NCBI GenBank assembly: GCA_000004985.1 | Contig: GG738851.1 | Length of the DNA stretch: 64,000 nucleotides | Source of the DNA: Naegleria gruberi | Taxonomy: Eukaryota | Direction: 5' to 3' (one strand) | In this document: positions 14,754 through 58,178 of the stretch, one piece after another | Numbering within the stretch: position 1 is the first letter of the stretch | How the letters are laid out: every line of letters starts with the position of its first letter | The notes under the pieces: generated by a model | Seen by the model: the letters and a program-made list of their open reading frames with translations, nothing else | The model's database searches: none | What the model was told of the DNA's origin: nothing | Made by a program: the position numbers and the translations under genes

Positions 14754-14758
14754 AAAAA
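14754..14758 (-). terminator. Pol III T-run terminator after 5S copy A
   Basis: The plus strand shows AAAAAG immediately 3' of the gene on the minus strand. Confidence 0.5.
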
Positions 14759-14877
14759 GACTACAGCACCACAGGTTCCCAAGTTGTCTCCAACCTCAGT
14801 ACTGATGTGGCTCGACGATGCTTAACTTCTCAAATCGGACGGGATGAGGTGCATTCATCGTGATATGGCCGTAGCCA
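14759..14877 (-). rRNA. 5S rRNA gene, copy A
   Basis: The reverse complement reads GGCTACGGCCATATCAC...CCCGTCCGATTTGAGAAGTTAAGC...AGTACTGAGGTTGGAGAC...GGGAACCTGTGGTGCTGTAGTC. Helix I/V motifs and a box-C-like GAAGTTAAGC are present, and TTTTT follows. It is identical to copy B. Confidence 0.9.
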
Positions 14878-15176
14878 TTCATGGTATGAAATCATTCCTT
14901 ATTAATTGAAATACTTTCTTTATGTGTGAAATATACATATGTTTTTCTTTTCAAGACCGGACTTGAAAATTAGGTAATGAGCCTTGAATATCCAATTTAT
15001 GAATCAGACCGTGTATACCTCCTATTGAACATGTTGAATCGAAACGTTGTATGTAGGAAAGTAATTAAGCTAATTTATAGAGCTAAAAGAAATTCCAATC
15101 CGATCATACTTTTTTCCGAAACCACTATCCCAAATCATATTAGAGTTGAAGAACCTTTCAGAGCTTTGTCAAAGGG

Positions 15177-39352: not shown

Positions 39353-42103
39353 TTATTTTGTTTCCAATAACCTAGGAGAGGTTATAACATTCAGATTGGA
39401 TATTTGTTTTGATTGTAATAATTTGGAGTCACTGTCTGAAAATTTTTTAAGATGATGATGAGCATCTTCTACAGAGAGGAGACGAGGAGAGACAGTGGTA
39501 ACACTGCTTCTTCTGGGTGAAGTTGGACCACCATCGGTTATTTGTGGTACTGGTAAGGTGAAATTCGAGAAACTCAAACGTTTTGGTGAGAGCTTTTCCC
39601 ACAATCCTCCAATAAAAGAGTCAGCTGTTAGTCTATTAGGTGTTCCTCCTGTTTGTGAATTTGATCGTTTTGGACAAATTAATACACTAAGTGTTGCAAA
39701 TTCCTTATCTGCCAATTCAGAAATGTTCTTCTTTTTTCCTCTTGGAGTTGTTGGCGGAGAGGTTACACTTTCAGAAGGAATGACCAAAGTAGCTTCATCG
39801 TTATGAACTGAAAGACGTGGTGTCAGAGAGGTATCAGTTCCTGAGGAGGTACTTGTGCAGCCACTGTCCATGCTTATAGATCTAGAAGGGGATTTCTCCT
39901 TCTTTTCAAATAATAATTCCAACTTGAGTAAATCAAATCCAATAATTTCTTCTTGCAACCTATTAAACAGGACTGTATCAATTGGTAGAGAAAGGTATTG
40001 ATTTGCATACGATTGGCAAGTTTCAATTTGTTGGTGAATTCTATAGATTTGTCCAAGTTTTACCATGTTGAAGAATGATTTGTCTCTGTGCTCAGTATTT
40101 TGGATTGTCGTACTGTGAATAGATTCAATTTGTGTCATTTCTGTCATGAATAGTCCAAAGTATGGTATGATTGGAGTATATCTTGTGAATTGAGCCACTC
40201 TTAGATTTTCAAACTTTTTACGAATCATGAATAAACTATCCAAAGTGGTAAGATAATCTTGATATTTTTGCTCAACCTTACTCCAGACATTTTTCAATCT
40301 ACTGACACACTGAGAAGTTAAAGATCCATAGATTGCCATTAAAGAGTTGTAGTTTCCCAGCTTTTCCAAGTGTTGACAAATATCCAAAAATTTCTCAATA
40401 CATGATGCTCTTTCCTGCAAGCTTAAATTCTTGTAAAAGATACAAAATTTTACAAAAATTCCGAGCTTGTTAAAGTAGTCAATGTAGAGTGATAGTGATG
40501 GGCATTGTGAGGTAGAATATTGTAAATCTGTTTTGTAGAGTGGTGTAGTTTGGCAATTAACATTAGCATATCTTTCCAAAGTGAGCTCCTTGTGAATATT
40601 AACATTTCTCAACAGCAGGGCATCCATAGCTGTTAAGTGTTGTGCAATAATTTCTGGGTTGGCAATACTCAACACCAGGGGAGATTTAATGAGACTAAAC
40701 TCATCAAGGTATGAAGCAATAGGTTTGATTATTGACTTGTCGAGTTCTATTTTCTTGTTTGAAGGATGATTAGGTGTTGAAGATGCCTCAAAGGAACCTT
40801 CAAAAGATTTTAAAAATTCACTCCATGATGTGAAGGTATTAGGATACGACCACGACCTAAACTCATTAGCATAATGTATGCACGAGTTTTTGAAATTTTC
40901 CTGATTAATCTTAACTCCAACCAATTCGGATAGTGTGCAATATTCATCAAAGGAATCCAAATCTCTAGAATAATATCTTAAAAAGTATTCAATAAAGGAC
41001 TTTCTAAGTTCACAATCTTCAAGGGAAAGTAATGAATTAACAAATAAATGAGTATTTGGAAAAATGTATAGATGCAAATCGAATAATACTCTTCTGATAT
41101 TATCATTTGTTTCTGATAATTTGAACAAACCAGTGAGAGTAATGGATTTCAAATGCTCTAGTTCAAAATTTGAATTTTCTACCGACACACTATCCTTCAA
41201 TATTAATTCCTTTGAAATATCACCACTTTCATGGCATGACCAATTCACACAATTTGCACTTTCCACATTTGTATTTCTAATAGAAGAAACACATTTCGGA
41301 ATATGGTGATTTCGAATATGTATCAATAATTCAGAGTTGGCAACATTTTGCTCACCCAAATAGTCATCACATCCCATTATTGTTGGCTTCTTTGAGTCTT
41401 GTTGAATCATTGAGAGAAGTAAACTAGTGCTAGGAACGGTCTGATAATTTACCAATCCACCAATATCCTCCCTATTAATCAGAGGAGATGAAGAGGGTGA
41501 CGAATTGAATTTTCTGTGATATTTTCCATTATTTTCCTGTTGTTGTTGATGTTGAGGTGTAGGAAATTGATAATTATCATGTCCTCCACCCTCCATAAAT
41601 CTCGTCGTATCAATTCTATATTGATCATCATTATCAATACTCATTACTTGTTGTGATGAAACTCTGTTTTTCAATAGTCGACCGGAATCATCTTCATTCC
41701 TTGAAAAACTCCCAGCTATACTTCCATCATTTGATTGGCCATCCATCACAGAGGAAATTCCATCTTCATCATCTCCAACACGAATAGCAATACCATCACG
41801 ATGACTATGAATCTTCTTCTTGTTATTACTTTTTCTTTTACAGTAAATTTTGATGAACACAAAAACGGCGCCAATTAAAAGCAACACCAAGAAAAAACCG
41901 CCCAAACCTGATGAGAGGGAAATGATGAGAATTTGTTCTAGGTTGTTGCCTGTTGTTGAATTGTTATTGTAAGAAGTTGTTGTATGTACAATGGCAGCAG
42001 ATGATGCTTTGATATTATTTGAATTCGGAGAGTTGGTTTCCTCCATTGAAGATAGAGAGTTGCTACTGATGAATGAATCATCACCGAAACATATTGTCAT
42101 CAT
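39353..42103 (-). CDS. membrane-anchored Ras guanine-nucleotide exchange factor (CDC25-homology domain)
   Basis: N-terminal TM (GGFFLVLLLIGAVFVFIKIY). RasGEF catalytic domain with TPIIPYFGLFMTEMTQIE (GxPYxG motif) and NLSLQERASCIEKFLDI. Confidence 0.8.
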   Translation of the reverse strand: MMTICFGDDSFISSNSLSSMEETNSPNSNNIKASSAAIVHTTTSYNNNSTTGNNLEQILIISLSSGLGGFFLVLLLIGAVFVFIKIYCKRKSNNKKKIHSHRDGIAIRVGDDEDGISSVMDGQSNDGSIAGSFSRNEDDSGRLLKNRVSSQQVMSIDNDDQYRIDTTRFMEGGGHDNYQFPTPQHQQQQENNGKYHRKFNSSPSSSPLINREDIGGLVNYQTVPSTSLLLSMIQQDSKKPTIMGCDDYLGEQNVANSELLIHIRNHHIPKCVSSIRNTNVESANCVNWSCHESGDISKELILKDSVSVENSNFELEHLKSITLTGLFKLSETNDNIRRVLFDLHLYIFPNTHLFVNSLLSLEDCELRKSFIEYFLRYYSRDLDSFDEYCTLSELVGVKINQENFKNSCIHYANEFRSWSYPNTFTSWSEFLKSFEGSFEASSTPNHPSNKKIELDKSIIKPIASYLDEFSLIKSPLVLSIANPEIIAQHLTAMDALLLRNVNIHKELTLERYANVNCQTTPLYKTDLQYSTSQCPSLSLYIDYFNKLGIFVKFCIFYKNLSLQERASCIEKFLDICQHLEKLGNYNSLMAIYGSLTSQCVSRLKNVWSKVEQKYQDYLTTLDSLFMIRKKFENLRVAQFTRYTPIIPYFGLFMTEMTQIESIHSTTIQNTEHRDKSFFNMVKLGQIYRIHQQIETCQSYANQYLSLPIDTVLFNRLQEEIIGFDLLKLELLFEKKEKSPSRSISMDSGCTSTSSGTDTSLTPRLSVHNDEATLVIPSESVTSPPTTPRGKKKNISELADKEFATLSVLICPKRSNSQTGGTPNRLTADSFIGGLWEKLSPKRLSFSNFTLPVPQITDGGPTSPRRSSVTTVSPRLLSVEDAHHHLKKFSDSDSKLLQSKQISNLNVITSPRLLETK

Positions 42104-42626: not shown

Positions 42627-44597
42627 ATGATAAGCTTGAAAAAAACCAATGATCTTCACAGTCATTTCTTTAACATTTTGGAGTTACCAGAAATTGTTAC
42701 TCACATTTTCCGAAATTTAGATATAGAAGAAAGAGCAAGAAAAAGACTTGTTAACACAACATTTAATCATGTCTATTTAATTGAAGAGGAGAATGAAATG
42801 TTGCAATTATGGAAGAAGTACGAGAGTGGATATTGTGGTGGTTATTATGTAAAACCACTCAGTGACGAAGAGTTGATAGCTTTGGAACAACAATTTGACA
42901 TGAAGATGCAATATCATTTGAAGATTTGGTTGACCAAGTGCTCAAATGGAAGATTTGAATGGCAACAATCATTGCTATCAATTGCAAATACTGGAGATTG
43001 GGATTATATCATTAATTCTCCATGTTTACAGAAATGTAAATTTGAATTGATGGATCATTTTGGTGATGAGATAGAAAACTTTATTTGTGTCCATTTCTCG
43101 TCCAGAGATCTCTGTGTAATGGACAAAAGGAATGGTAAATTCTACCATTCCTCGAATGCTGCTAGATTATATTGGAAGCAGATAGGTTATATTAGGGAAT
43201 GGTTAGAAAACATTTCGTATGATATTCTGTATCCATTATCTGAATTGAAAGGTGATCATATCAGTGCTCAGTTTTACAAATACTCGGAAGATATCAAGAA
43301 ATTGACCTCTGAAGGCAATATGAATGAATTTCTGAGATTTATCTCTGCAAGTCCTCAATCCTATTCTTTATTGAGTAATGAATGGAAGGGAAAGGAAGAA
43401 GTAATTGGAGCACTTTTATCAAATAATTATGAGGATCCTAATGGGTTCTTTTCACATTTACCAGCTCACATTCCATTTGATTTGAGAAATGACAAGGAAT
43501 TTTTATTGAAATACTTTAAAATAGCCGACTTTTGCTATTACATTCCAACAAAATTGAGAAATGACAAGAAATTTATGAAGAAATTAATATTACAATATAA
43601 TACTTGTTTCAATATAGGAGCCTTGCCAAAGGATATTCTCAGAGATACTGAAATATTAAGGTCACTTTCTGATAGTATTCTCTTAAACTCTGAGGTCCAA
43701 GAATATGTTGATTGGGAGTTTGAAACTGTTGAGCAAGTTAAAACTTTCTTTACTCAGCACCCAGAATCACATATTTCAATTCCATTCATTTCAGATACTA
43801 TCCTGAATGATAAATCAGCAATGATCGATATTTTGAATGAGGTCTATAATCTTGAACTTAAACCAGAAGATACATTGAATGATTTATCAGCGATTGAAAA
43901 AATTGTAAATGAATCCTCACCAATGGTTCTATCTATTGTTGATGAATCCATCAGAAACAACAAAGAGTTTATGATGAAGCTTGGGGAAATTTCTTTAATG
44001 TTTATTGGAAATGAATTGAAAACAGATTTAGATTTAATTTCTAGTGCAAAACCGACAGTACTGAAAAAATTGAATCTCATCATGTCAAAACAAGAATTTC
44101 TAGAATTATTAGAAAGGATTCAAAAAGCACCAACTATCCAATTCAAATACCTACACAATTTGAATTTATTTGACGCCTTGAAATATCAAATTCCCAGAGA
44201 ATATTTCAATGATCCAGAGTTTGCTTATGAAACCTATAGAATTACATCAGCTTCAGAACAATATTTAGGGAAAGTTGCAAAACAAGATTTTAATTTATGG
44301 ATTCGACTTGCACGAATGGAATTGGATTTATATGGAGCTCCTCCAGAACTGTTGGTTACAAATAGAGATCTTGCCTTTCAAAACATCTTTTCACCAATGG
44401 ACTTGCCCGATGATTTGATTTTTGATGAAGATTTTATGATAACGTGGATGGATAACCATCAGGAAATCAATGGTTTTGTTTGTTTGCCAACAAAGGCAAG
44501 AACAAGGAAGCTCTTTAAACACCTTCTTGTTAAGCATCCTTATTTGAAAAAGTTTGGTCCACCAGAATGGTTGGAAGAAGAAAAACCAAGTAAATAA
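42627..44597 (+). CDS. DUF4116-repeat protein (paralog 2)
   Basis: Repeats such as DLRNDKEFLLKYFKIADFCYYIPTKLRNDKKFMKKL and ESIRNNKEFMMKLGEISLMF. Confidence 0.55.
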   Translation: MISLKKTNDLHSHFFNILELPEIVTHIFRNLDIEERARKRLVNTTFNHVYLIEEENEMLQLWKKYESGYCGGYYVKPLSDEELIALEQQFDMKMQYHLKIWLTKCSNGRFEWQQSLLSIANTGDWDYIINSPCLQKCKFELMDHFGDEIENFICVHFSSRDLCVMDKRNGKFYHSSNAARLYWKQIGYIREWLENISYDILYPLSELKGDHISAQFYKYSEDIKKLTSEGNMNEFLRFISASPQSYSLLSNEWKGKEEVIGALLSNNYEDPNGFFSHLPAHIPFDLRNDKEFLLKYFKIADFCYYIPTKLRNDKKFMKKLILQYNTCFNIGALPKDILRDTEILRSLSDSILLNSEVQEYVDWEFETVEQVKTFFTQHPESHISIPFISDTILNDKSAMIDILNEVYNLELKPEDTLNDLSAIEKIVNESSPMVLSIVDESIRNNKEFMMKLGEISLMFIGNELKTDLDLISSAKPTVLKKLNLIMSKQEFLELLERIQKAPTIQFKYLHNLNLFDALKYQIPREYFNDPEFAYETYRITSASEQYLGKVAKQDFNLWIRLARMELDLYGAPPELLVTNRDLAFQNIFSPMDLPDDLIFDEDFMITWMDNHQEINGFVCLPTKARTRKLFKHLLVKHPYLKKFGPPEWLEEEKPSK

Positions 44598-44844: not shown

Positions 44845-47580
44845 ATGAAAAGAACAAGGGACGAATTTACCAACTCATCGTCGGACGATGAAGACACTTC
44901 TCAGCATGAAGATGATTCACCACCGACAAAGAAAGAGAAGGAAACTCCAAAATATCGTCCTCCAATTGGTGCACTCTTGGTTGCAGGTTACGGAGCATGT
45001 GAGGACGAATTTACAATTTTCACACTCGATCAAGCAGATGATTTGGAGAATACTAGAGGCAGATTCCCATATAGAGATTATAGAGATGCTTATGAAAGAA
45101 AGAAGGAGAGAAACATTCGGTCATGGACCGATAATTATGTGAAGAATGATGACGATCGTGATCGTGATGAATTGTCCTATTTACAAATTCCTAGTCAAAA
45201 TCTTATCAAGCAAATTCCGTGTGAAATTCTACTCGATTGCATGTTTTATATGGACAAGTATGCATTGTTTAATTTTATTCAAACATGCAGTTTAGTTTAT
45301 GAATTGTTTGATGAGGTTTATGGAGAAAGTATTGAACGGCTACGTCTTGATATTCTCAATAAGAAGAGGAGTGCTGGGAATTTGAATAGGTTGGTGGATT
45401 TATTCTCCAATTCATCAAGTTGGAATGAGAGTTTAGTTCAAGATTCGAATAAGAAAGTAATGATGACCTATGATCAATATTTTAGAATGAAGAGTTCAAG
45501 CAAGTGGCCAACTAGTTATTTTCACGATCATTTGAAGTTTAGAACATTTAAGAAGGATGATCCAATGATTGACCTAATCAACAATCAGGCACTTACAGAT
45601 TCTCTCAAATTTCAGGAAATGAGCTTTGAAGAGTATATCGATTTACAAAAAGATAGCACACCAATATTACCGTATGGATTACTCACTCAACCAGACACAT
45701 ACTATCTAACTTTTGACAATTTTGTAAAGAGAAGATGTTCATTACTAAATTTTGAGCAATTTGCATTGGAAGGTGATGATAGGTATAAATCATACATTGA
45801 TGGTTTATTGAAGGTGGAAACTGTCATCCTTCCTCATACGTATTCAGATCTTGAGGAAGTGAATGGTTCCTTGTCAGGTTACTCCTGGTATCCATACTTC
45901 ACAAAGTATCAAGATTATCATTTTTATATGGACAGTATTTCAGAAAAAAAAGATCTTCCAAAACGTTATGAAAAAATTGTCAGATTCTTTAAGAATCCTT
46001 ATGAAATGACATTTTCAGATTTTCAAGACAGATTCAAGAATGAAATTTTGAGAGATTATGAATTAGCAAGAATCTTATTTTATGATTGTGCATTTGAACA
46101 TAACAAAACAACCAAGACAAAGGAACGTTTTGTTATATCAGGAGGATCCCTTCTTCACACCTTGACTGGTTGTGGTTTCAGTGATTTTGATTTATTCATC
46201 ATTAATAATGGAGAATCAGACGAAATTATCACTCAAGCAATCAAACAAGTTTTATTGAAATTGGAAGGAAAAACTAAACATTTGAATTACAATATTATGA
46301 GTTCCAAAGCTACAATTAATATTTGTCAAGAAGGGAATGAAAACATTCAGATAGTATTATTGAAATATGATACCATTGAGGAATTGCTCTTATTTTTTGA
46401 TTTGGATTGTTGTAAACTGGTCTATGATGGAGAGAGAGTATTAACAGTTTTAGAATGTTTACGATCCCTCAAGTACAAGATTAATTTTATCCACAGAGAA
46501 TCAGGAGGAAAAAGTGAAGTCCACCATGAAAGAGCTTTAAAATATGGAAATAGAGGTTTCTTAACAATTGTTGCTGATTCCTTTCATCCTCTTTCTCATG
46601 TAATGCATTGTGATTTTATTGTAGAAAGAATTCGAAAGATACTCATTGAAAAGTATGCCAAACAAATGCAAAGTGAGGGAATTAACACTCGATACAATAA
46701 TCCAATGGTTGATTTGTTTATTGGTAGAAACAAAACAACTTCAGAAATTGCTACAGTAGACTTGGACGAATCTAATTTGCTCTATCCTGTCGTTTTGAAG
46801 AATATTTCATTTAAATTCGTGGAACAATGCTTGACAAATGGACTTCTCTTTGCCGTCAGAGAAATGGAAAGCGAAGTTGAGGCTGAGAAAGAAATGCTGA
46901 AACGTTTGAAACTGGACGAATATGAATTTGCGAAAAATCCATCAGATCTATTTCAAATTCTTCCAGAAAATCAAAATCTTGTGAAAGCCAAATATTCCTA
47001 TAGTCATTTAGTTTGCAAGTTTTCCATTGTTCATTGTCAAAACTGTTCTATTTACTTTTATTGCCCATTTGCTTCATCTGTGTTAAGGGAACAACGAAAA
47101 AAGGATAGTTGTAATGGACATTTGATACCATTTTTGGAAAATCAAGTTACAAAAGAAAATTACGATCCGAAAATTAACACACTTTGTCAATCTTGCTTGA
47201 ATCAATTGAATTGTTTGGAGAAATATGATGATTTCATTTTATATAAGGAATATAGAAATACAAGATTTGTGGAAAATCAAATAGAGACTAAAATAATTCA
47301 AACTATTTACAAAATTGAAAAGATTGAAAACCTTAAAGGAGTATCACAGGATAGAATACTTCATCTTTTATCAAAAACCTTTTCACTACCTGATTTGGAA
47401 TATACTTTGAAAATTTTGAAATTTAAAGAGCTTGTAATAAGCAGCCAAGAGGAAGACGAAATCAAGTTAACACTTCGCTCTTTATTACCAATCTGGTCAT
47501 ATAGCAACAAGATTGTGGTTCCAATCCCAATATCTGAAAAGAAACAAAAGGTTATTCTTGATTTCTTCAAGAAAAAGTGA
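44845..47580 (+). CDS. hypothetical large protein with an F-box-like motif
   Basis: A 911-aa ORF. IPCEILLDCMFYMDKYALFNFIQTCSLV is F-box-like. The N-terminus is acidic, and a Cys-rich segment (HCQNCSIYFYC) lies near the C-terminus. Confidence 0.45.
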   Translation: MKRTRDEFTNSSSDDEDTSQHEDDSPPTKKEKETPKYRPPIGALLVAGYGACEDEFTIFTLDQADDLENTRGRFPYRDYRDAYERKKERNIRSWTDNYVKNDDDRDRDELSYLQIPSQNLIKQIPCEILLDCMFYMDKYALFNFIQTCSLVYELFDEVYGESIERLRLDILNKKRSAGNLNRLVDLFSNSSSWNESLVQDSNKKVMMTYDQYFRMKSSSKWPTSYFHDHLKFRTFKKDDPMIDLINNQALTDSLKFQEMSFEEYIDLQKDSTPILPYGLLTQPDTYYLTFDNFVKRRCSLLNFEQFALEGDDRYKSYIDGLLKVETVILPHTYSDLEEVNGSLSGYSWYPYFTKYQDYHFYMDSISEKKDLPKRYEKIVRFFKNPYEMTFSDFQDRFKNEILRDYELARILFYDCAFEHNKTTKTKERFVISGGSLLHTLTGCGFSDFDLFIINNGESDEIITQAIKQVLLKLEGKTKHLNYNIMSSKATINICQEGNENIQIVLLKYDTIEELLLFFDLDCCKLVYDGERVLTVLECLRSLKYKINFIHRESGGKSEVHHERALKYGNRGFLTIVADSFHPLSHVMHCDFIVERIRKILIEKYAKQMQSEGINTRYNNPMVDLFIGRNKTTSEIATVDLDESNLLYPVVLKNISFKFVEQCLTNGLLFAVREMESEVEAEKEMLKRLKLDEYEFAKNPSDLFQILPENQNLVKAKYSYSHLVCKFSIVHCQNCSIYFYCPFASSVLREQRKKDSCNGHLIPFLENQVTKENYDPKINTLCQSCLNQLNCLEKYDDFILYKEYRNTRFVENQIETKIIQTIYKIEKIENLKGVSQDRILHLLSKTFSLPDLEYTLKILKFKELVISSQEEDEIKLTLRSLLPIWSYSNKIVVPIPISEKKQKVILDFFKKK

Positions 47581-47881: not shown

Positions 47882-49723
47882 ATGAAACTGTTCGGTCTTG
47901 TTGTTATTTTACTAATTGTGTTCAGTCAACTGACCAATGGTTTAGATTATGTATCAATTTCTGACTATGGCGCCATCGCGGATGGTATCACAGATAACAC
48001 TGCATTCATTAGCAAGGCAATTTCTGATGCAAAGGCCAAGAATTTAACACGAGTTTATGTGCCTCCATCTTCCAAACCATATCTTCACAATAATTTAATT
48101 ATTCTTGATGGTATTTTGTTATATGGTGATGGATACTTGTCATGGTTGCATGGATCTAACACTGAAGCATCACCAATCAAATTGATTGGAAACAATTCAG
48201 GTGTTAAAAATCTTCGGTTGACCAGTATAGATCAGAACAGAAGAAGTGTTCCATGGGCCACAACTGTTTGGTGCTATTTTGCAACTAATTTTCTTGTAGA
48301 TAACATTTGGGCTGAACCAATGGATGGAAAAGGTTACACTTACAATACAACACTTGTTCATGGAGTTGGTGGAATTTTCATTTATGGTTGTGAAAATGGA
48401 ACCGTTTCGAATAACAATTTGAATTATACATATGCTGACAGTATTCACAATACTCACACTACCAAATCAGTCCAAATTTTCAATAATATGATTGAGAATA
48501 GTGGAGATGACGGTATTGCTTCTGTTTCTTATAATGGAAATGAAATTAACCGAAACTTGGTTATTTTCAAAAACTATGTCAAGGGCAATAGATGGGGAAG
48601 AGGTATTACAAACATTGGAGGTGATCAAATCATTATTGAGGATAATACAGTTGAAGCTGGAACTGCTGCAGCAATTTGGTTGGCAGCTGAATATTATTAC
48701 AATACTCTATCTCCTTCCAATACGATTGTTAGAAGAAACAAAGTAATAAGAGCAGGATCAGCTGATGGGAAATGTTATGGGCCTAATACGATTCCATCTA
48801 TGGGTATTAATAATTCTAATTTTCCATTTAAGGCAAATAATATTCAATTTGTGGACAATGTAGTTATGGACTCATGTTTGGATGGAATTGTAATTGGTGG
48901 AACTGATGTCAAGAACGTTGCCATTGCTGGAAACACATTCATTAACCAAAGAGCTGGTGCATTCTTCACAACAAGTAATTCCTCTCAAATTTTCTTCCTC
49001 AACAATCGTGTAGAAAATTCGAGTATCAACTCTATTGTTACCATCAATTATCAAGATACCTTAATCATTGATGGAAATACTCTCGTCAATGCCATTACAA
49101 ATATGCAAGGCAGAACACAAGTTGTCTATATCATTAAGGCAGGTCGAGTTCAATTTACAAATAATAGATATTCACAATATGTTCCAACTGGATCCAATAC
49201 AATAATTCAATTAGGATCTGCTGATTCAGTTGTTAATGATGATAGCGACTCGAAGCTTTCAACTAAGGTACCAAGTAATGTTGCTTCCTTTGCCATTCCA
49301 ACAATTCAGGATTTGGAATTTAATTTTACAACTAATGGAAATGTTGTAACAGTGACAGAATCTCAAATTCTCTCCAAACTTTCATTGGATTCTTCATTGT
49401 TTTCTCTATTAGTTGGATTTTCTGGTGTTGGTGGAAAGGTTGATACCAGTTTCGATAGAAAAACCATGACATTTAGTTTTTCAAATGATTTGAAAAGTGG
49501 CACTTTCAAATATTCAGTTCAATCTGTATTGGAATCTTCTGCTCAAACAGCTAATATTAGAGTGAATAGAATTGCAATTCCAATAGTTGCAGAATCGTCA
49601 AAGCCAAAACCAAAACCTTCTTCAAGTTACATTAATAAGGCAGTCTCTGATGGAAGTACTATTTGTTTTGCTCACCAATTGATTGTAATTGTACTCAGTT
49701 TTATGCTTGTATTACTCTTTTAA
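47882..49723 (+). CDS. secreted right-handed beta-helix protein (pectate-lyase-3 / GH55-like), likely GPI-anchored
   Basis: Signal peptide, then DYVSISDYGAIADGITDNTAFISKAI. Many beta-helix repeats follow (NNLNYTYADSIHNT..., VKGNRWGRGITNIGG...). The C-terminal tail is hydrophobic. Confidence 0.7.
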   Translation: MKLFGLVVILLIVFSQLTNGLDYVSISDYGAIADGITDNTAFISKAISDAKAKNLTRVYVPPSSKPYLHNNLIILDGILLYGDGYLSWLHGSNTEASPIKLIGNNSGVKNLRLTSIDQNRRSVPWATTVWCYFATNFLVDNIWAEPMDGKGYTYNTTLVHGVGGIFIYGCENGTVSNNNLNYTYADSIHNTHTTKSVQIFNNMIENSGDDGIASVSYNGNEINRNLVIFKNYVKGNRWGRGITNIGGDQIIIEDNTVEAGTAAAIWLAAEYYYNTLSPSNTIVRRNKVIRAGSADGKCYGPNTIPSMGINNSNFPFKANNIQFVDNVVMDSCLDGIVIGGTDVKNVAIAGNTFINQRAGAFFTTSNSSQIFFLNNRVENSSINSIVTINYQDTLIIDGNTLVNAITNMQGRTQVVYIIKAGRVQFTNNRYSQYVPTGSNTIIQLGSADSVVNDDSDSKLSTKVPSNVASFAIPTIQDLEFNFTTNGNVVTVTESQILSKLSLDSSLFSLLVGFSGVGGKVDTSFDRKTMTFSFSNDLKSGTFKYSVQSVLESSAQTANIRVNRIAIPIVAESSKPKPKPSSSYINKAVSDGSTICFAHQLIVIVLSFMLVLLF

Positions 49724-51618: not shown

Positions 51619-51749
51619 TGTATTTTCTAGAAACTATGCTTCAGTGGAGAGCTGCTTATAAGCATCTACAATGAAAATAAACCCAACACGTTTATCTATT
51701 TTCCACTAATAGGTATATTAGTTATGATTAAGATTTTACCTCAATGAAT

Positions 51750-51867
51750 GGCTACGGCCATATCACGATGAATGCACCTCATCCCGTCCGATTTGAGAAG
51801 TTAAGCATCGTCGAGCCACATCAGTACTGAGGTTGGAGACAACTTGGGAACCTGTGGTGCTGTAGTC
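51750..51867 (+). rRNA. 5S rRNA gene, copy B
   Basis: Identical over 118 nt to the reverse complement of 14759-14877. Followed by TTTTT. Confidence 0.9.
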
Positions 51868-51872
51868 TTTTT
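51868..51872 (+). terminator. Pol III T-run terminator after 5S copy B
   Basis: TTTTT lies immediately 3' of the gene. Confidence 0.5.
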
Positions 51873-52055
51873 ATCTTTCAGTCTATGCCAATTTCATTTA
51901 TGATCAAGTTTAAGAAATTTACAATTAGTTCATGTCGACAATCTGTGTAAAGACGCTGAAAGATCATTCGAAAAAAATGAGCAAACGAAAAAGACAAGAT
52001 TTGGAAAATCATCAATTAATTAATTATTCGGAGGAAATTCACTAACAATACTATT

Positions 52056-52304
52056 GTGGAAGAGAAATCAAAAGTTGCGAAACAGATATTTTCAGATGAT
52101 ATTTGTTTTGAAATAATTTCCATGCTTGATGATTCGTGGTTTATTTTAAATAATTGTTCTTTAATTTCAAAACAATTCTTTAATGTGATCAAGGAACGTT
52201 CAAAACTTGTTATTCAATTTAAAACAAAATTTACAAAGAAAAGAATTAAATTATTCATGAAAAGTCAATTTATGAATAGTATGGTTAATGTTAAATTTGC
52301 TTGA
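52056..52304 (+). CDS. F-box-like N-terminal ORF, probably part of the downstream LRR gene
   Basis: DICFEIISMLDDSWFILNNCSLISKQFFNVIKE is F-box-like. It is in frame +2 relative to the LRR ORF and overlaps it. Confidence 0.35.
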   Translation: MEEKSKVAKQIFSDDICFEIISMLDDSWFILNNCSLISKQFFNVIKERSKLVIQFKTKFTKKRIKLFMKSQFMNSMVNVKFA

Positions 52305-52764
52305 CTCGAGAGAAAAAGCCAAATTCATCAGTGAAATGAAACAATTATCATCACTGAATGTTTATAACAATGAAATTGGTTGCGAAGGAGCCAAATATAT
52401 AAGTGAAATGCAACAATTAACATCAGTTGATATTTATTACAATGAAATTGGTGATGAAGGAGTCAAATATATCAGTGAAATGAAACAATTATCATCACTT
52501 AATGTTTATAACAATGAAATTGGTGATGAAGGAGTCAAATACATCAGTGAAATGAAACAATTAACATCACTTAATATTCCTGACAATCGAATTAGTGTTG
52601 AAGGAGTCAAATATATCAGTGAAATGAAACAATTAACATCACTTGATATTTCTTATAATGAAATTGGTGATGAAGGAGTCAAATATATCAGTGAAATGAA
52701 ACAATTATCATCACTTAATATTTCTTACAATGAAATTGAATTTTGGCAGGGGGGCGGAAAGTGA
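52288..52764 (+). CDS. leucine-rich repeat protein (RNI-like 24-aa repeats)
   Basis: Six or more repeats of ISEMKQLTSLxIxxNEIGDEGVKY. The last five codons and the stop come from the inserted element. Confidence 0.7.
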   Translation: MLNLLDSREKAKFISEMKQLSSLNVYNNEIGCEGAKYISEMQQLTSVDIYYNEIGDEGVKYISEMKQLSSLNVYNNEIGDEGVKYISEMKQLTSLNIPDNRISVEGVKYISEMKQLTSLDISYNEIGDEGVKYISEMKQLSSLNISYNEIEFWQGGGK

Positions 52765-53684
52765 AGAAAAATGATGAGAAAGGAAAAAATAAACAAAAAA
52801 ACAACCAGTTTAATTTTCTGAACAACCAAAACCAAAGCCATGTTTCAGACCTTGTAAAGTAACTTTCTGATTATTAGCCAGAAATGCTTAAGAATCAACT
52901 TTTTCGTAACTCCACAAACAGTACAGCAAAAGGGTTTTGCCATTTTTTGGAAGTTTTTTGTAAATAAAAATGCATAATAATTGTGATTGAGATTAAACAT
53001 TATTATCTGCCACATCGAAGAAACAATTCCAACCTTTGATATTTGGAATATATCATTACTACATGAATTATCGCGATTTGACAGAAGCTATTTTTTATTT
53101 TTTGCTTCTATCTTAAGAACGAAAGTTAGCCATCACACTCATTCAATTTCATACCAAAACCAAGCGTACACAGAGAGTTCAAAAAATCCTCCAGCCACAA
53201 CGAAGGAATCTTTTAAAGGTGTCATGTGTTCAATTATTGAACTTTATGAAATTTAAAAGTAACTGAGAGAAGCTATTTTTTTATTTCATCGTATTTATTT
53301 TTTTTAATACTTCCTAAATAGTGCATGTGTTTTTAGCTTAAAATTTAATTCTGAAAATATGCTGTTTACGATAAATACTTCACAGAAATGAAAAATTCCA
53401 AGATGAGAAATATATATATTGGTACTGAAATGTCTTCAAATTGCTAAAGTTTTGGGAAACATCATCCTCGACCCTGAGAGTATCTATGTGAATAAATTCT
53501 AGACAACAAGACGTGAATATGTGAATTAAAATCGATATTGTGAAACTTCACCTGTTTATAGAACTGTAACAGATTATTGGATGTATAGAGTTGTATATTT
53601 ATTGAAAAAACATATATCGACTTGGAACCACTTTGACAATTCTCAACATTTTCGCTCGGCTGATACCAACTTTCCGCCCCCCTG
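52747..53684. mobile_element. hAT-like non-autonomous DNA transposon (MITE), 938 bp, with a perfect 16-bp TIR (CAGGGGGGCGGAAAGT...ACTTTCCGCCCCCCTG) and an 8-bp TSD (AATTTTGG at 52739-52746 and 53685-53692)
   Basis: The TIR and TSD are exact in the sequence. The CAG terminus and the 8-bp duplication are hallmarks of the hAT superfamily. No transposase ORF is present. Confidence 0.8.
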
Positions 53685-53875
53685 AATTTTGGTAAGGGGT
53701 TTGTAGTCCTCTCCCGCCAAGTTTAATCCACTTTTCACTAGCAAATAAAATGCCAGAAATTCACTGATAATCCACCTGCTGGTGGAAAAGCGTATTCTGC
53801 TTTAAATAACTCTCTGCGTTCTTGGTCCAATTTTCCAACAACAAAAAACAACAATAATAATTATTATTAACAGAA

Positions 53876-55444
53876 ATGTCAAGCAGCAGACCAACAAGAG
53901 AAAGAAGATTACCAATTCACTTGGAAGATTATATTGTTGGTGAATTAGATTTACGAAAGAATTATGAAAAGGAAGAAAAGAAGAAACAAAAATTATTATT
54001 AAAGAAGAAGGCTGAAATTTCAAAGAAGGAACAAGCTGAAAAGAGAAAGAAAGAAGCCATGGAAGCAACAAAGAAAAAGAAGGAAGCTGTTAAAAAATCT
54101 ATTAGAAAAAAGCCATCTTCATCATATTATACTTCATCTTCAACAACAATTTCTAAAAGATCTTCATCCGCAATTACACCATATACAGATTATAATAATC
54201 CAAAATTTAAAGTTTTTACATCAACATCTGAAGCAAGAAACAAATTAATTGAAAAAACACCTGGTAATAAGATTTTAAAAGGATCAGATGATGCTTCTAA
54301 ATGGTCAATGTCAAAATTAGATTCATCAATTAGATACAAATCACTTAATATTTCAGATATTTTAAGTGGATGTTATTATGTACCAGGTAATAATCACAAA
54401 TTAGATACAACTGGTAGTGATAGAGTACCCACAGTTCAAATTTGTTTTTCATTTGATACAACTGGTTCAATGTCTTCATATTTAAATAATTTGAAATTTA
54501 AATTACAAACTATTTGTCAACAATTAATGAATGATGTTAGAGGTTTAGAAATTGCAATTATTGCACATGGTGATTATGAAGATTCTAAAGATAACGGTTC
54601 ATATTGTTTATACAAATTAGATTTTACAACAGATATTGAACAAATTATTTCATTTGTTCAATCAATTAATTCAACAAGTGGTTATGATGGAGATGAATGT
54701 TATGAAGCTGTTTTATTAGAAGCTCAATCTTTATCTTGGGTTAATGTTGAAAATACATTTACAAATAGATCACTTGTTGTAATTGGTGATGCTGATCCTC
54801 ACAAATCAAATGAATGGTTTAATATTGATTGGAAACAAGAAACAAGTAATTTATTTGATAATCATCATGTTAAAATTCATAGTGTTAGATGTGGTTCATC
54901 TTCATGGTCAACAAAAGATTTTTACAAAACAATTTCGGAAGAAACAGGTGGATCTGAATATTTATTAGATACATTTGAAAAAACAATTGAAATGTTTTGT
55001 GGTTTAATTTATAGAGAAGCTGCTGATAATATTATGATGAATGATACAACAATGCAAGCACATATTGATGGAGCAGTTTCAGGTGAAGTTACAATTGTTA
55101 AACCAACAATGTCTTCAAGTGATAAGATGATTGATGATGGTGAAAAGAGTGATGATGTTACATCATTAGGTTCATATATTGTTACAGATGATGATATTTT
55201 AAAGATTCACACTGCAATTCATAGTACTTGTACAGAAGTTAAAATTAATGGTATTGAATTTGCAATTCAAATGAATGAAAGTTCATGTAGATTTGTAAGA
55301 GTTGATGGAGTTGTCTATATTGAACAAAATAAGGAAAAGAAGACTAAGTATGCCAAGATGGCTTTAGAAGGAAAGAAATTAACTTGGATTTGTCATGCTG
55401 GTAATTGGGGTCTTATCATTGATGATAAAATTGAAAAGAGATAG
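53876..55444 (+). CDS. von Willebrand factor A (vWA) domain protein with a K/E-rich N-terminal region
   Basis: MIDAS-like VQICFSFDTTGSMSSY...AIIAHGDYED...SLVVIGDADPH. Confidence 0.65.
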   Translation: MSSSRPTRERRLPIHLEDYIVGELDLRKNYEKEEKKKQKLLLKKKAEISKKEQAEKRKKEAMEATKKKKEAVKKSIRKKPSSSYYTSSSTTISKRSSSAITPYTDYNNPKFKVFTSTSEARNKLIEKTPGNKILKGSDDASKWSMSKLDSSIRYKSLNISDILSGCYYVPGNNHKLDTTGSDRVPTVQICFSFDTTGSMSSYLNNLKFKLQTICQQLMNDVRGLEIAIIAHGDYEDSKDNGSYCLYKLDFTTDIEQIISFVQSINSTSGYDGDECYEAVLLEAQSLSWVNVENTFTNRSLVVIGDADPHKSNEWFNIDWKQETSNLFDNHHVKIHSVRCGSSSWSTKDFYKTISEETGGSEYLLDTFEKTIEMFCGLIYREAADNIMMNDTTMQAHIDGAVSGEVTIVKPTMSSSDKMIDDGEKSDDVTSLGSYIVTDDDILKIHTAIHSTCTEVKINGIEFAIQMNESSCRFVRVDGVVYIEQNKEKKTKYAKMALEGKKLTWICHAGNWGLIIDDKIEKR

Positions 55445-55678
55445 GAAACCAATCCTTAAAAACCATAGTCGAGTGTAAATAAAACTTTAATCAAAAATTT
55501 TCGTAATTCTAAACGTTCCAATTTCAAACCGAGTGGTGGTATCAGATCCACTTGATGGAATTCTTTTGGAATGGCCTTGGACAGATTCCAATTCCTTATT
55601 TCTTCAATAAGGAATGGATGTAGTCCTAGTGTTTTTAAATTCTCTACTTATATGATAAAGAAAAAGATGGAAATGTAA

Positions 55679-55752
55679 GCAGCGATAGATCAGTTGGTTA
55701 GATCGTAAGCCTAACACGCTTAAGGTCGCGGGTTCAAGCCCCGCTCGCTGTA
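55679..55752 (+). tRNA. tRNA-Val(AAC)
   Basis: GCAGCGA-TA-GATC-AGTTGGTTA-GATC-G-TAAGC-CTAACAC-GCTTA-AGGTC-GCGGG-TTCAAGC-CCCGC-TCGCTGT-A. Clover-leaf pairing holds with a G1:U72 wobble. A and B boxes are present. No CCA is encoded. Confidence 0.9.
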
Positions 55753-55755
55753 ACT

Positions 55756-55764
55756 TATTTTTTG
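55756..55764 (+). terminator. Pol III T-run (TTTTTTT) after tRNA-Val
   Basis: ACTTATTTTTTTG lies immediately 3' of the tRNA. Confidence 0.5.
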
Positions 55765-55919
55765 TTTCTCGATTTATAAAGACCAGTAAATTTTAACGCA
55801 TTATTTTTGGCGCTAGAAACGTTTACAGATTTTCAAAAAAAATTAATGCTCTTATTGTACTAGAAAAACATCAACCAATTTTAAAACATCATCAACACTA
55901 ACAATATATTGGAAGCATA

Positions 55920-58178
55920 ATGCTAAGAAATAACGATTTTGGAGGGGCTACAGTTACCCAGACAAAAAAGATGTCTCACTTTACCCCAACCGATCAAAGA
56001 GAATTATACCGAGATGCAGTAAAACAACAATCATCAAATCCATTCAAATTGGAGAGAGTAGTAAATTATGATGGAATGTTCACGGAGCATGGTTCAAGCT
56101 TTAGATTTGGTACATCTCATAATTATAATCCAAATTATTTTCCTCCTAAAACATTTGTAAAAAGTGGTAGGAATGAGCCTCACATTGAAACAACTCTATC
56201 TGGACCTGACCGATATAAATTTTTCCATAGACCAGTTGTTGGACCTGTGAGTGAGAATGAATTTTTAAGCATGCCAATGAATGAAAAACATACAGTCTAT
56301 GTGACTGATAAACCATTAAAAACGGAAAGAGATGAATCTCAAGAAGAGATTGAATTCCAAGAGGAGGAAATAATATCTCAACCAAGAACTAGAGAAGCTG
56401 GAACACAGTCAATGTATAGAGAAAATGACACTCAAACCATGCCATACTTCCCACCAGTCAGACAAAAATCAGCAAAAACTAATGAAGTGGATTTGAACAA
56501 TCCATACAGTAATCAAAAGGAACGAGCTGTTATGAGACCAGGAGAACAAGTAGAAATGGACCCTGAAGATTACCCCGACTATATGAAAATGCATGATTTA
56601 GTTTTTGAGGATGGTAGGAATGGAGGATTTATTACTGAGGATCACATTAAAATTGTAGATAGAACGAGGAGAAGAAGAGAAGTAGAAGAACAACTGAAAA
56701 GAGTTGGACCAAATATTGATGAACAAGAATTTAAGAATCGAGTCAATATGTTAAAAGACCTTGAAATGATAGAATGGAAGGAAAGAGAGGAGGAAGTTGC
56801 CAAAATGCAGGAAAGGCAAATTGAGCATGTCAGAGCAAAATTTGAGGTTCGAGAACAAGTCAGAGAAATGAAGAGTAGTTCTAGGTTGGAATCAAGATTG
56901 AAAAAGATACAAGAAGAAACAAAAGAAAAACTTGCCAAGATTGAAAAGAAAAAGCTTAAAAACATCAGAAGAACGATCAAGAAGTTTGATAATCCTGAAA
57001 ACACACTTGAAAGAAGAGATATTCTATTCGAATATTCCTTCCCTGCCTCTAGGACCTATGCTCCAATGTTGAGAGATGGTCAAGTCTCGGCTCTCACAAC
57101 CATTGCATATGAAATTAGACCTGCTCTTTTGACAGATCCATTGGGAGTGGAAGAAGTTCAAATGAATCAAGTTAACAAATACCTGACCTCAGAGAATAGA
57201 AACCTCGATAAGGCTCTCCCCATTCGTGATAAATCAGGTGCTGTTGTCGTTGATCCTCTCAAGACAACAATCAATCCAGAAAATAGAAAGCAAAAGGTTG
57301 TAAAGGAACATTTACAATTAGCCATCAAGGAGCTTGAAAAGTTAAAGAATGTAAACGACATCCATGATCGTGTCAAGGAAGTGAAAGAAATGTACAAATC
57401 TACTCCTAGAATTACAAGACCTCCAACACCGACTTTGGAAGATGAAGGCTCTGAAACTGATGTCGTTTTTGATGATTTGGAGAATGCTGCTTCATTCATT
57501 CAAAAATTATTGAGAGGAAGAGCAGCTCAAGAAGAATTTTACGAGGGTAAAGAAAGAAGTATCGAGCTTATTAAGGAATTACAAGCTGTTGAAGAAATTA
57601 AACGAAAGGAAAGAGAACAAGAGAAATCTCACCACTTTAAAGAACAACAAAGAAGACAAAATCTCGACCAAGCAAGAGAAATTGTCATGGACAATATCCA
57701 AGGTAAACTCATCAGTAATGCACTTGACTTTTTATCTAAAGAGCTCATCAGACAAGATGAACTCAAAAGAGTCAAACAATTGGTTGAATTTGCAGAAAAG
57801 GAAAGACACCAAAGAGAACAAGAAGAAATCATTAGAAGAAAGCATGAAGAGGAGGCCAGAAAAAGAAAGGAAAAGATTCAATCAGAAACAATTCAAATTC
57901 ACACCGATACAGTTTCCACTTACCTTCTCGATATTTTCAATGCTTGTTCTGAAAGTTTAGCTGAAAGACAGGCCAGAGAAGAAATACTGCAGGAAAGATT
58001 GTCAGATGAAATACTCAAAGAACGTACAGTAATAACACCTGAAGAAGGAGCAATCAAGGATCTTGTCAAATCCTTCCTTTTACCACAAGTCAAGAGAGAA
58101 GTTCTCAAAAAGAAGATTGACGTTAATCAGAACAAGTTTTTGAATTCAGCCCATTCACTATTCCAATCCATAGAGTAA
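55920..58178 (+). CDS. IQ-motif, E/K/R-rich coiled-coil protein; possibly CFAP91/FAP91-like axonemal protein
   Basis: IQ-like ASFIQKLLRGRAAQEEF. The C-terminal half is a long charged coiled coil. The N-terminal region (FHRPVVGP...) resembles cilia-associated proteins. The family assignment is tentative. Confidence 0.5.
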   Translation: MLRNNDFGGATVTQTKKMSHFTPTDQRELYRDAVKQQSSNPFKLERVVNYDGMFTEHGSSFRFGTSHNYNPNYFPPKTFVKSGRNEPHIETTLSGPDRYKFFHRPVVGPVSENEFLSMPMNEKHTVYVTDKPLKTERDESQEEIEFQEEEIISQPRTREAGTQSMYRENDTQTMPYFPPVRQKSAKTNEVDLNNPYSNQKERAVMRPGEQVEMDPEDYPDYMKMHDLVFEDGRNGGFITEDHIKIVDRTRRRREVEEQLKRVGPNIDEQEFKNRVNMLKDLEMIEWKEREEEVAKMQERQIEHVRAKFEVREQVREMKSSSRLESRLKKIQEETKEKLAKIEKKKLKNIRRTIKKFDNPENTLERRDILFEYSFPASRTYAPMLRDGQVSALTTIAYEIRPALLTDPLGVEEVQMNQVNKYLTSENRNLDKALPIRDKSGAVVVDPLKTTINPENRKQKVVKEHLQLAIKELEKLKNVNDIHDRVKEVKEMYKSTPRITRPPTPTLEDEGSETDVVFDDLENAASFIQKLLRGRAAQEEFYEGKERSIELIKELQAVEEIKRKEREQEKSHHFKEQQRRQNLDQAREIVMDNIQGKLISNALDFLSKELIRQDELKRVKQLVEFAEKERHQREQEEIIRRKHEEEARKRKEKIQSETIQIHTDTVSTYLLDIFNACSESLAERQAREEILQERLSDEILKERTVITPEEGAIKDLVKSFLLPQVKREVLKKKIDVNQNKFLNSAHSLFQSIE

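What the first reader, a model, noticed from the sequence alone, without database searches (positions are those of the whole stretch)
52739..53692. hAT-type MITE inserted at the stop codon of an LRR gene
A perfect 16-bp terminal inverted repeat (CAGGGGGGCGGAAAGT / ACTTTCCGCCCCCCTG) bounds 938 bp that has no long ORF. It is flanked by an exact 8-bp direct repeat, AATTTTGG. The CAG terminus and 8-bp TSD are diagnostic of hAT transposons. The insertion falls in the last codons of the LRR gene. The pre-insertion ORF would end ...YNEIEFW*. The current ORF reads through the TIR and ends ...EFWQGGGK*. The element thus supplies a new C-terminus, stop codon and presumably 3' UTR. The insertion looks recent, as TIR and TSD are intact.
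Basis: partly seen in the sequence, partly recalled or inferred. Interest (0 to 1): 0.75.

Follow-up and report, generated by a model that had tools for sequence, protein, structure and literature searches.

The report
Non-coding hAT-like transposon in Naegleria
A 938-bp non-coding cut-and-paste DNA transposon, probably of the hAT type, sits between the last codon and the stop codon of a decayed leucine-rich-repeat gene copy in the amoeba Naegleria gruberi; it is a real but ordinary transposon insertion.

Summary
A perfect 16-bp terminal inverted repeat (52747-52762 / 53669-53684) bounds a 938-bp non-coding segment. An exact 8-bp direct repeat, AATTTTGG (52739-46 / 53685-92), abuts it, and the original TGG-TAA gene end is preserved just downstream. 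This TIR-plus-duplication pair is unique in the window and never appeared in shuffled controls. The window is the Naegleria gruberi NEG-M reference.

The best reading is a non-autonomous class II transposon insertion. It is hAT-like by duplication length, TIR length and its 5'-CAGGG terminus.

The superfamily call rests only on those three features. I found no second copy and no transposase: nothing in the window, in metagenome or viral contigs, or in the protein collections. The N. gruberi genome DNA could not be reached, so "MITE family" and "hAT" remain unproven.

The host "LRR gene" carries two frame disruptions relative to five paralogs and has no reference gene model. It is probably a pseudogene, so the new QGGGK* C-terminus is likely of no consequence.

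The element also lies 183 bp upstream of a VWA gene that has two ~99%-identical copies on other scaffolds. Those loci are the obvious empty-site comparators.

Low interest: a new member of a known kind.

The parts
52739..52746 (+). Target-site duplication, copy 1 (AATTTTGG). It forms the last codons of the host ORF: (G)AA TTT TGG.
   Evidence: (D14)
52747..52762 (+). 5' terminal inverted repeat CAGGGGGGCGGAAAGT. It is read by the host ORF as Q G G G K plus the T of the TGA stop.
   Evidence: (I8)
52747..53684 (.). The whole non-autonomous element: 938 bp, 31% GC, no coding capacity, no Rfam family and no internal or subterminal repeats.
52762..52764 (+). New stop codon TGA of the read-through ORF. 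It is made of the last TIR base and the first two internal bases.
53669..53684 (-). 3' terminal inverted repeat (ACTTTCCGCCCCCCTG on the + strand).
   Evidence: (I8)
53685..53692 (+). Target-site duplication, copy 2 (AATTTTGG).
53693..53695 (+). Original stop codon TAA of the host ORF, now displaced 946 bp downstream.
   Evidence: Paralog P0118 likewise ends ...NPNW*.
51977..52764 (+). Host locus: a copy of the N. gruberi N-terminal-domain plus LRR (RNI-like, 72-nt repeat) family. It is disrupted by a 2-nt deletion near 52038-52040 (EEI|FTNN) and by a deletion that is not a multiple of 3 near 52296 (VNVKF|LDSREKAKF). The remaining open frame is 52288-52764 (158 aa).
53876..55444 (+). Downstream VWA-domain gene NAEGRDRAFT_63691. 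Its ATG lies 183 bp beyond the 3' duplication, so the element also sits in its 5' flank.

Best explanation
The 938 bp at 52747-53684 are a non-autonomous class II (cut-and-paste, TIR) DNA transposon, most likely of the hAT superfamily, in the Naegleria gruberi NEG-M genome.

Inferred mechanism: a transposase encoded elsewhere in the genome recognised the 16-bp termini and excised the element from a donor site. It then integrated the element through a staggered 8-bp cut at AATTTTGG, and gap repair duplicated those 8 bp.

The target was the junction between the last sense codon (TGG) and the stop codon (TAA) of one copy of a large F-box-like/LRR gene family. That copy is frameshifted in two places and is probably a pseudogene. 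As a by-product, the surviving 158-aa ORF reads into the TIR and ends QGGGK*. The element itself encodes nothing. It pushes the old stop codon and the short intergenic region 946 bp downstream and now lies 183 bp upstream of the VWA gene NAEGRDRAFT_63691.

Shown: the anatomy (TIR, duplication, restored empty site), the lack of coding capacity, the state of the host gene and the organism. Inferred: the superfamily, mobilisation in trans, and the lack of functional consequence.
For: - Perfect 16-bp TIR and exact abutting 8-bp direct repeat.
- It is the only inverted repeat of 65 in the window with a duplication of 6 bp or more, against none in about 2,400 null pairs.
- Conceptual excision restores an in-frame TGG-TAA gene end, and the closest paralog, P0118, also ends in W*.
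- The interior is stop-riddled, with no Pfam hit, no protein homolog and no Rfam family.
- The 8-bp duplication and 16-bp TIR fall within the published hAT ranges of 8 bp and 10-25 bp (PMC3942097). The terminus CAGGG equals the first five bases of the Ac/Ds TIR and fits the hAT YARNG motif (own knowledge).
- Its architecture is about 1 kb of unrelated filler between short TIRs. This mirrors maize Ds-l4 elements, which share only about 30 bp per end with Ac (PMC3260210).
- Organism and scaffold were identified by exact protein matches.
- The host gene is disrupted: paralog proteins map in frames 3, 1 and 2 without intron space, and there is no reference gene model.
Against: - No second copy and no autonomous partner were found. 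There is no other copy and no transposase in the 64-kb window, only chance single-arm matches in metagenome and viral contigs, and nothing in the protein collections.
- The rest of the N. gruberi genome could not be searched.
- The duplicated 8-mer AATTTTGG (or its complement CCAAAATT) fits neither the Ac-type nTnnnnAn nor the Buster-type nnnTAnnn preference.
- No subterminal repeats are shared between the ends.
- Only 6 of the first 11 terminal bases match Ac, which is below Repbase's 10-of-11 rule (PMC4455052).
- The papers I could search report MuDR and Kolobok in Naegleria (PMC3164196, PMC9587614), but none reports hAT.
Confidence: 0.62

Rival explanations
1. It is a non-autonomous TIR transposon, but of a superfamily other than hAT that also makes 8-bp duplications. 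Candidates are P, some Mutator-like elements, Zisupton or Novosib, or an undescribed group.
For: The only classifying features available are the duplication length and the terminal bases. The duplication does not match hAT target preferences and there are no subterminal repeats. The DNA transposon superfamilies I found reported for Naegleria are MuDR and Kolobok, not hAT (PMC3164196, PMC9587614). Only a small fraction of N. gruberi repeats can be classified as known transposons (PMC12344493).
Against: MuDR typically gives 9-bp duplications and long TIRs (PMC3164196, PMC5225508). Kolobok gives TTAA duplications and RR/YY termini (PMC9587614). P-type termini start CATG rather than CAGGG (own knowledge). 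A CAG(G/A)G start combined with a short TIR and an 8-bp duplication is the classic hAT signature.
Confidence: 0.25
2. The element has been exapted. The 158-aa LRR-only ORF (52288-52764) is expressed, and the transposon provides its functional C-terminus, stop codon, 3' UTR and polyadenylation signal. Alternatively, it rewires the promoter of the VWA gene 183 bp downstream.
For: The ORF is open for 158 aa from an ATG and ends inside the TIR. An AATAAA lies 24 bp after the new stop, at 52788. The element sits in what was a roughly 180-bp intergenic spacer.
Against: The family's N-terminal domain is cut off by two frame disruptions. No gene model exists at this locus in the reference annotation and the exact ORF is absent from the protein collection. 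AATAAA is expected by chance in 31% GC DNA. No expression data could be consulted.
Confidence: 0.1
3. It is not a transposon. It is either a chance inverted repeat with a chance direct repeat, or an assembly or repair artefact such as a microhomology-mediated insertion.
For: 16-nt perfect inverted repeats occur by chance in this AT-rich window (14 of 40 shuffles). The 3' flank after the duplication (TAAGGGG) weakly resembles the element's start (CAGGGGG) (D14). Only one copy is known.
Against: The arms are G+C-rich in AT-rich DNA and unique in the window. The exact 8-bp repeat abuts both arms with no offset. The joint event never occurred in the null set, and its expectation is about 60 x 3.4e-5, or roughly 0.002 per window. 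Excision restores an intact codon-stop junction.
Confidence: 0.03

Closest known systems
Maize Ds-like non-autonomous hAT elements (Ds1, and especially Ds-l4) mobilised by Ac
   Same: 8-bp target-site duplication, a short TIR beginning CAGGG, a length of about 1 kb, and unrelated non-coding 'filler' between ends that share little or nothing with the autonomous element beyond the termini. They also insert in or next to genes (PMC3260210).
   Different: The TIR is 16 bp and G-rich (CAGGGGGGCGGAAAGT), against the 11-bp CAGGGATGAAA of Ac. There are no AAACGG-like subterminal repeats. The host is a heterolobosean amoeba, and the autonomous partner and copy number are unknown.
BuT2-derived MITE-like elements of Drosophila willistoni (hAT, Tip family)
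   Same: They are 532-927 bp, non-coding, have short TIRs and 8-bp duplications, and are of modest copy number (PMC3942097).
   Different: Those keep about 100 bp of each end of a known autonomous element. Here nothing beyond the 16-bp TIR can be related to anything.
DNA transposons already reported in Naegleria gruberi (MuDRF, Kolobok)
   Same: The same host genome, and they are class II TIR elements (PMC3164196, PMC9587614).
   Different: MuDRF gives 9-bp duplications. Kolobok gives TTAA duplications with RR/YY termini. Neither fits an 8-bp AATTTTGG duplication with CAG...CTG termini.

Membership tests
hAT superfamily (non-autonomous member) | 8-bp target-site duplication | tested here: met
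   AATTTTGG lies at 52739-46 and 53685-92 and abuts the TIRs exactly. The criterion is from PMC3942097.
hAT superfamily (non-autonomous member) | Short terminal inverted repeats (10-25 bp) | tested here: met
   16 of 16 bp (I8). The range is from PMC3942097.
hAT superfamily (non-autonomous member) | Terminal motif 5'-YARNG (CAG/TAG start) | tested here: met
   The terminus reads CAGGG. The motif is from my own knowledge of hAT termini (Ac CAGGGATGAAA, hobo and Hermes CAGAGAAC) and was not checked against a database.
hAT superfamily (non-autonomous member) | Target preference nTnnnnAn (Ac family) or nnnTAnnn (Buster family) | tested here: not met
   Neither AATTTTGG nor CCAAAATT fits either pattern. 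This is a statistical preference rather than a strict rule, so it counts only weakly.
hAT superfamily (non-autonomous member) | Termini (positions 1-11, at most 1 mismatch) shared with a classified hAT element or an autonomous copy encoding a hAT transposase (Repbase rule, PMC4455052) | not testable with these tools
   Neither the N. gruberi genome DNA nor Repbase could be reached. Against Ac only 6 of 11 bases match. No transposase lies in the window.
hAT superfamily (non-autonomous member) | Subterminal transposase-binding repeats | tested here: inconclusive
   Shared k-mers between the two 200-bp ends are not enriched over shuffles. Mobile Ds1 elements can also lack such repeats (PMC3260210).
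MITE (descriptive class) | Short, non-coding, AT-rich interior, TIR plus duplication, in or near genes | tested here: met
   It is non-coding, has 31% GC and lies at a gene end. At 938 bp it is at or above the usual size limit.
MITE (descriptive class) | Many homogeneous copies in the genome | not testable with these tools
   There is one copy in the 64-kb window and none in metagenome or viral contigs.
MuDR/Mutator | 9-bp (8-11 bp) duplication, usually long TIRs | tested here: not met
   The duplication is 8 bp and the TIR 16 bp. MuDRF in N. gruberi has 9-bp duplications (PMC3164196).
Kolobok | TTAA duplication, 5'-RR...YY-3' termini | tested here: not met
   The duplication is AATTTTGG and the termini are CA...TG. 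The criterion is from PMC9587614.

The most novel reading that the evidence does not exclude
The element belongs to a recently or still mobile DNA transposon family in Naegleria gruberi, either hAT or an undescribed group that makes 8-bp duplications. Under this reading the insertion is present in only one of the three ~99%-identical LRR-VWA duplicates of strain NEG-M. That would date transposition to after a very recent duplication. It would also point to an endogenous cut-and-paste system that might be harnessed for integration in an organism that lacks good transgenesis tools.
Probability: 0.2. Interest if true: 0.4.

Novelty: new member of a known kind. Interest (0 to 1): 0.17.

Why it matters
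The finding matters little by itself. It is one clean, apparently young class II transposon insertion in a genome whose repeats are mostly unclassified (PMC12344493), and I found no paper in the searchable library describing hAT elements or MITEs for it.

Its practical value has three parts:
- It gives a seed (termini plus 938 bp) for finding the family and its transposase in Naegleria.
- It marks this LRR copy as a decayed gene, so the read-through C-terminus should not be annotated as a real protein feature.
- It is a presence/absence marker for relating the three near-identical VWA loci and for comparing N. gruberi strains.

Tried and rejected
1. Other copies in the window. A blastn of the element against the window, and a TIR search at up to 3 mismatches, found only the element itself.

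2. Other copies in public collections. A degenerate TIR+5 pattern in JGI metagenome contigs gave 2 hits, and the 16-mer in IMG/VR gave 2 hits. All lie in contigs of 50-62% GC, show a single arm and have no similarity to the interior, so they are chance matches.

3. Coding remnants. Six-frame translations against Pfam at E up to 1 gave only noise. All stop-free segments of at least 28 aa (most 30 aa or longer), joined as one 893-aa query against 5.8 billion proteins, gave no hit at E up to 0.01.

4. The exhaustive HMMER search with the 89-aa internal ORF gave one hit, P0163 (E 4e-16). I rejected it. P0163 is a spurious 2115-aa ORF read through an ~85-aa tandem repeat. Each unit matches at only about 27 bits and 30% identity, and the E-value is inflated by 22 repeats of the same weak match.

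5. Empty-site test. I tried to fetch the reference DNA around P0001, P0117 and P0155, and around the window's own protein. N. gruberi is not in the gene-position index. The N. lovaniensis relative P0004 is not syntenic, since an acyl-CoA oxidase gene lies upstream of it.

6. I first thought the window came from another strain, because of the 516/522 match to P0001. That was wrong. The exact protein is NAEGRDRAFT_63691 of NEG-M, and P0001 and P0155 are additional copies.

7. Transposase in the window. All 29 ORFs of 180 aa or more were scanned in Pfam and none is a transposase.

8. Structured RNA in the element. Only sub-threshold Rfam noise appeared: U8 at 23 bits and IRE at 19 bits.

9. Literature. 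Seven full-text searches found no paper describing hAT elements or MITEs in Naegleria. The genome paper (PMID 20211133) and a PMC id that I recalled from memory for the Feschotte & Pritham review are not held.

Full report
**Observation.** CAGGGGGGCGGAAAGT occupies 52747-52762 and its perfect reverse complement occupies 53669-53684 (I8). AATTTTGG occupies 52739-52746 and 53685-52692's counterpart 53685-53692, touching the two arms with no offset. The bounded element is 938 bp with 31% GC.

The 16-mer occurs nowhere else in the 64-kb window, even with three mismatches. The expectation was 0.06 matches, and none of 100 shuffles gave two.

I also ran a window-wide scan for perfect inverted repeats of 12 nt or more, spaced 50-5000 bp apart.
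- The real sequence has 65 such pairs, against about 59 in Markov shuffles.
- Arms of 16 nt or more appear by chance in 14 of 40 shuffles, so arm length alone is not remarkable in this AT-rich DNA.
- This arm, however, has 11 of 16 G+C.
- It is the only pair in the window with a flanking direct repeat of 6 bp or more.
- None of about 2,400 null pairs had one, and the per-pair chance of an 8-bp match is about 3.4e-5.

The combined structure is therefore not chance.

The apparent 10-bp direct repeat TGAATTTTGG (D14) arises because the last two TIR bases are TG. Only the 8-bp parse keeps the TIRs symmetric.

**Where the window comes from.** The ORF just downstream (53876-55444) is identical to NAEGRDRAFT_63691 of Naegleria gruberi NEG-M, on a 693,645-bp scaffold. 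Four other ORFs match EFC48365, EFC48366, EFC48367 and EFC48370 exactly.

The window is gene-dense and ordinary. It encodes a kinase, cyclases, a subtilase, a RasGEF, an AlkB-like oxygenase and CFAP91, among others. None of its 29 ORFs of 180 aa or more is a transposase.

**The element.** All six frames carry 13-23 stops. The searches for content all came back empty:
- No Pfam match at E up to 1.
- No protein in 5.8 billion clusters resembles any of its open segments.
- No Rfam family reaches threshold.
- No tandem repeats.
- The two 200-bp ends share nothing beyond the 16-bp TIR, with no enrichment of shared k-mers.

A single hit from the exhaustive HMMER search, P0163, is an artefact. It is a spurious ORF over a tandem repeat, whose weak 27-bit match is counted 22 times.

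The element is thus short TIRs around about 900 bp of anonymous AT-rich filler.

**The host gene.** Five annotated N. gruberi paralogs (62-74% identity, P0117-P0122) define a family with a conserved N-terminal region (MSKRNRQD...EIFSDDxCFEIIS...FMNSIVNVKF) followed by RNI-like 24-residue LRRs. Mapped onto the window, these proteins align in three different frames:
- Residues 1-20 align to 51977-52039 in frame 3.
- Residues 23-108 align to 52047-52295 in frame 1.
- Residues 112-260 align to 52282-52731 in frame 2.

There is no room for introns. The first break is a 2-nt loss in ATT TTC, which gives ATTC and a TAA stop at 52043. The second is a deletion that is not a multiple of three, between VNVKF and LDSREKAKF.

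No reference protein from this scaffold matches the locus, and the 158-aa ORF is not in the protein collection. The host is therefore most likely a pseudogene, of which a 158-aa LRR-only frame (52288-52764) stays open.

That frame reads GAA TTT TGG | CAG GGG GGC GGA AAG TGA, so it ends EFWQGGGK*. Downstream of the second AATTTTGG comes TAA (53693-53695). Removing the element plus one repeat copy therefore restores EFW*. The closest paralog, P0118, also ends ...NPNW*. This is a paralog-level, in-silico empty site and not a true allelic one.

**Mechanism.** The anatomy is that of a cut-and-paste insertion with an 8-bp staggered target cut. An 8-bp duplication, a TIR within 10-25 bp and a CAGGG terminus are the features used to call hAT elements (PMC3942097; the terminal motif is from my own knowledge). 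The closest described architecture is the maize Ds-l4 class. Those are about 1 kb long, carry filler DNA and share only about 30 bp per end with Ac (PMC3260210). The element must be mobilised in trans, because it encodes nothing.

Several points weigh against a firm hAT call:
- The duplicated 8-mer fits neither published hAT target preference.
- There are no subterminal repeats.
- Only 6 of the first 11 bases match Ac, below the Repbase criterion for placing non-autonomous elements (PMC4455052).
- No autonomous partner or second copy could be found in the window, in JGI metagenome contigs, in IMG/VR or in the protein collections.

The N. gruberi genome itself could not be queried. The literature I could search documents MuDR (9-bp duplications) and Kolobok (TTAA) in Naegleria, and neither fits (PMC3164196, PMC9587614). 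It notes that only a small fraction of N. gruberi repeats can be classified as known transposons (PMC12344493).

My estimates are about 0.9 that this is a TIR transposon insertion and about 0.6 that it is hAT.

**Age and consequence.** Intact TIRs and duplications cover only 48 bases, so they exclude only divergence above a few percent (inference). 'Recent' is plausible but loosely bounded.

Because the host is frameshifted, the new C-terminus is probably inconsequential. The element does sit 183 bp upstream of the ATG of NAEGRDRAFT_63691, in what was a spacer of about 180 bp. An effect on that gene's promoter is conceivable but untested.

**Context worth using.** NAEGRDRAFT_63691 has two further copies at 98.7-98.9% amino-acid identity on other scaffolds: NAEGRDRAFT_59430 and NAEGRDRAFT_49977. 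The three neighbouring genes tested have no such twin in N. gruberi. These duplicated loci are the natural empty-site comparators and would also date the insertion relative to the duplication.

**Verdict.** It is a real, ordinary non-autonomous DNA transposon insertion, hAT-like by its signature. Family status and copy number are untested, and the insertion lies in a probable pseudogene. It is a new member of a known kind and of low interest.

Noticed in passing
window 53876-55444: The VWA-domain gene NAEGRDRAFT_63691 has two further copies at about 99% amino-acid identity on different scaffolds of the same assembly: NAEGRDRAFT_59430 on a 290,827-bp scaffold and NAEGRDRAFT_49977 on a 396,166-bp scaffold. 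Three of its neighbours (42627-44597, 44845-47580 and CFAP91 at 55920-58178) have no such N. gruberi twin. This looks like a small, recent, dispersed duplication rather than separately assembled haplotypes.
   Followed up: partly
window 51744-51872 (+) and 14754-14882 (-): There are two 5S rRNA genes (Rfam 105 bits each), identical over 129 bp including a few flanking bases and dispersed 37 kb apart. One ends about 105 bp upstream of the ATG of the LRR pseudogene.
   Followed up: partly
window 51977-52764: The LRR-family copy that hosts the transposon carries two frame disruptions relative to five annotated paralogs, and GTG replaces the family's internal Met. It is probably a pseudogene and is not annotated in the reference.
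   Followed up: yes
P0117 and P0003 (N. gruberi scaffold of 536,960 bp): A more distant LRR paralog (62%) and a more distant VWA paralog (63%) lie on one and the same scaffold. This suggests that the LRR-VWA gene pair is an old arrangement that has been duplicated as a unit. Adjacency could not be checked.
   Followed up: no
window 47882-49723 and 39353-42103: ENA metagenome contigs of 3-4 kb encode proteins in the same 90%-identity clusters as these two window genes (P0158, P0162). A N. gruberi-like strain is therefore present in a public environmental assembly and could serve for presence/absence comparisons.
   Followed up: no
window 55679-55752 (+): A tRNA gene (Rfam 66.9 bits) lies in the spacer between the VWA gene and the CFAP91 gene.
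   Followed up: no
window 52000-56000: G+C drops to about 30% over 52-56 kb, against 33-36% in most of the window. This interval covers the LRR pseudogene, the transposon and the triplicated VWA gene.
   Followed up: no
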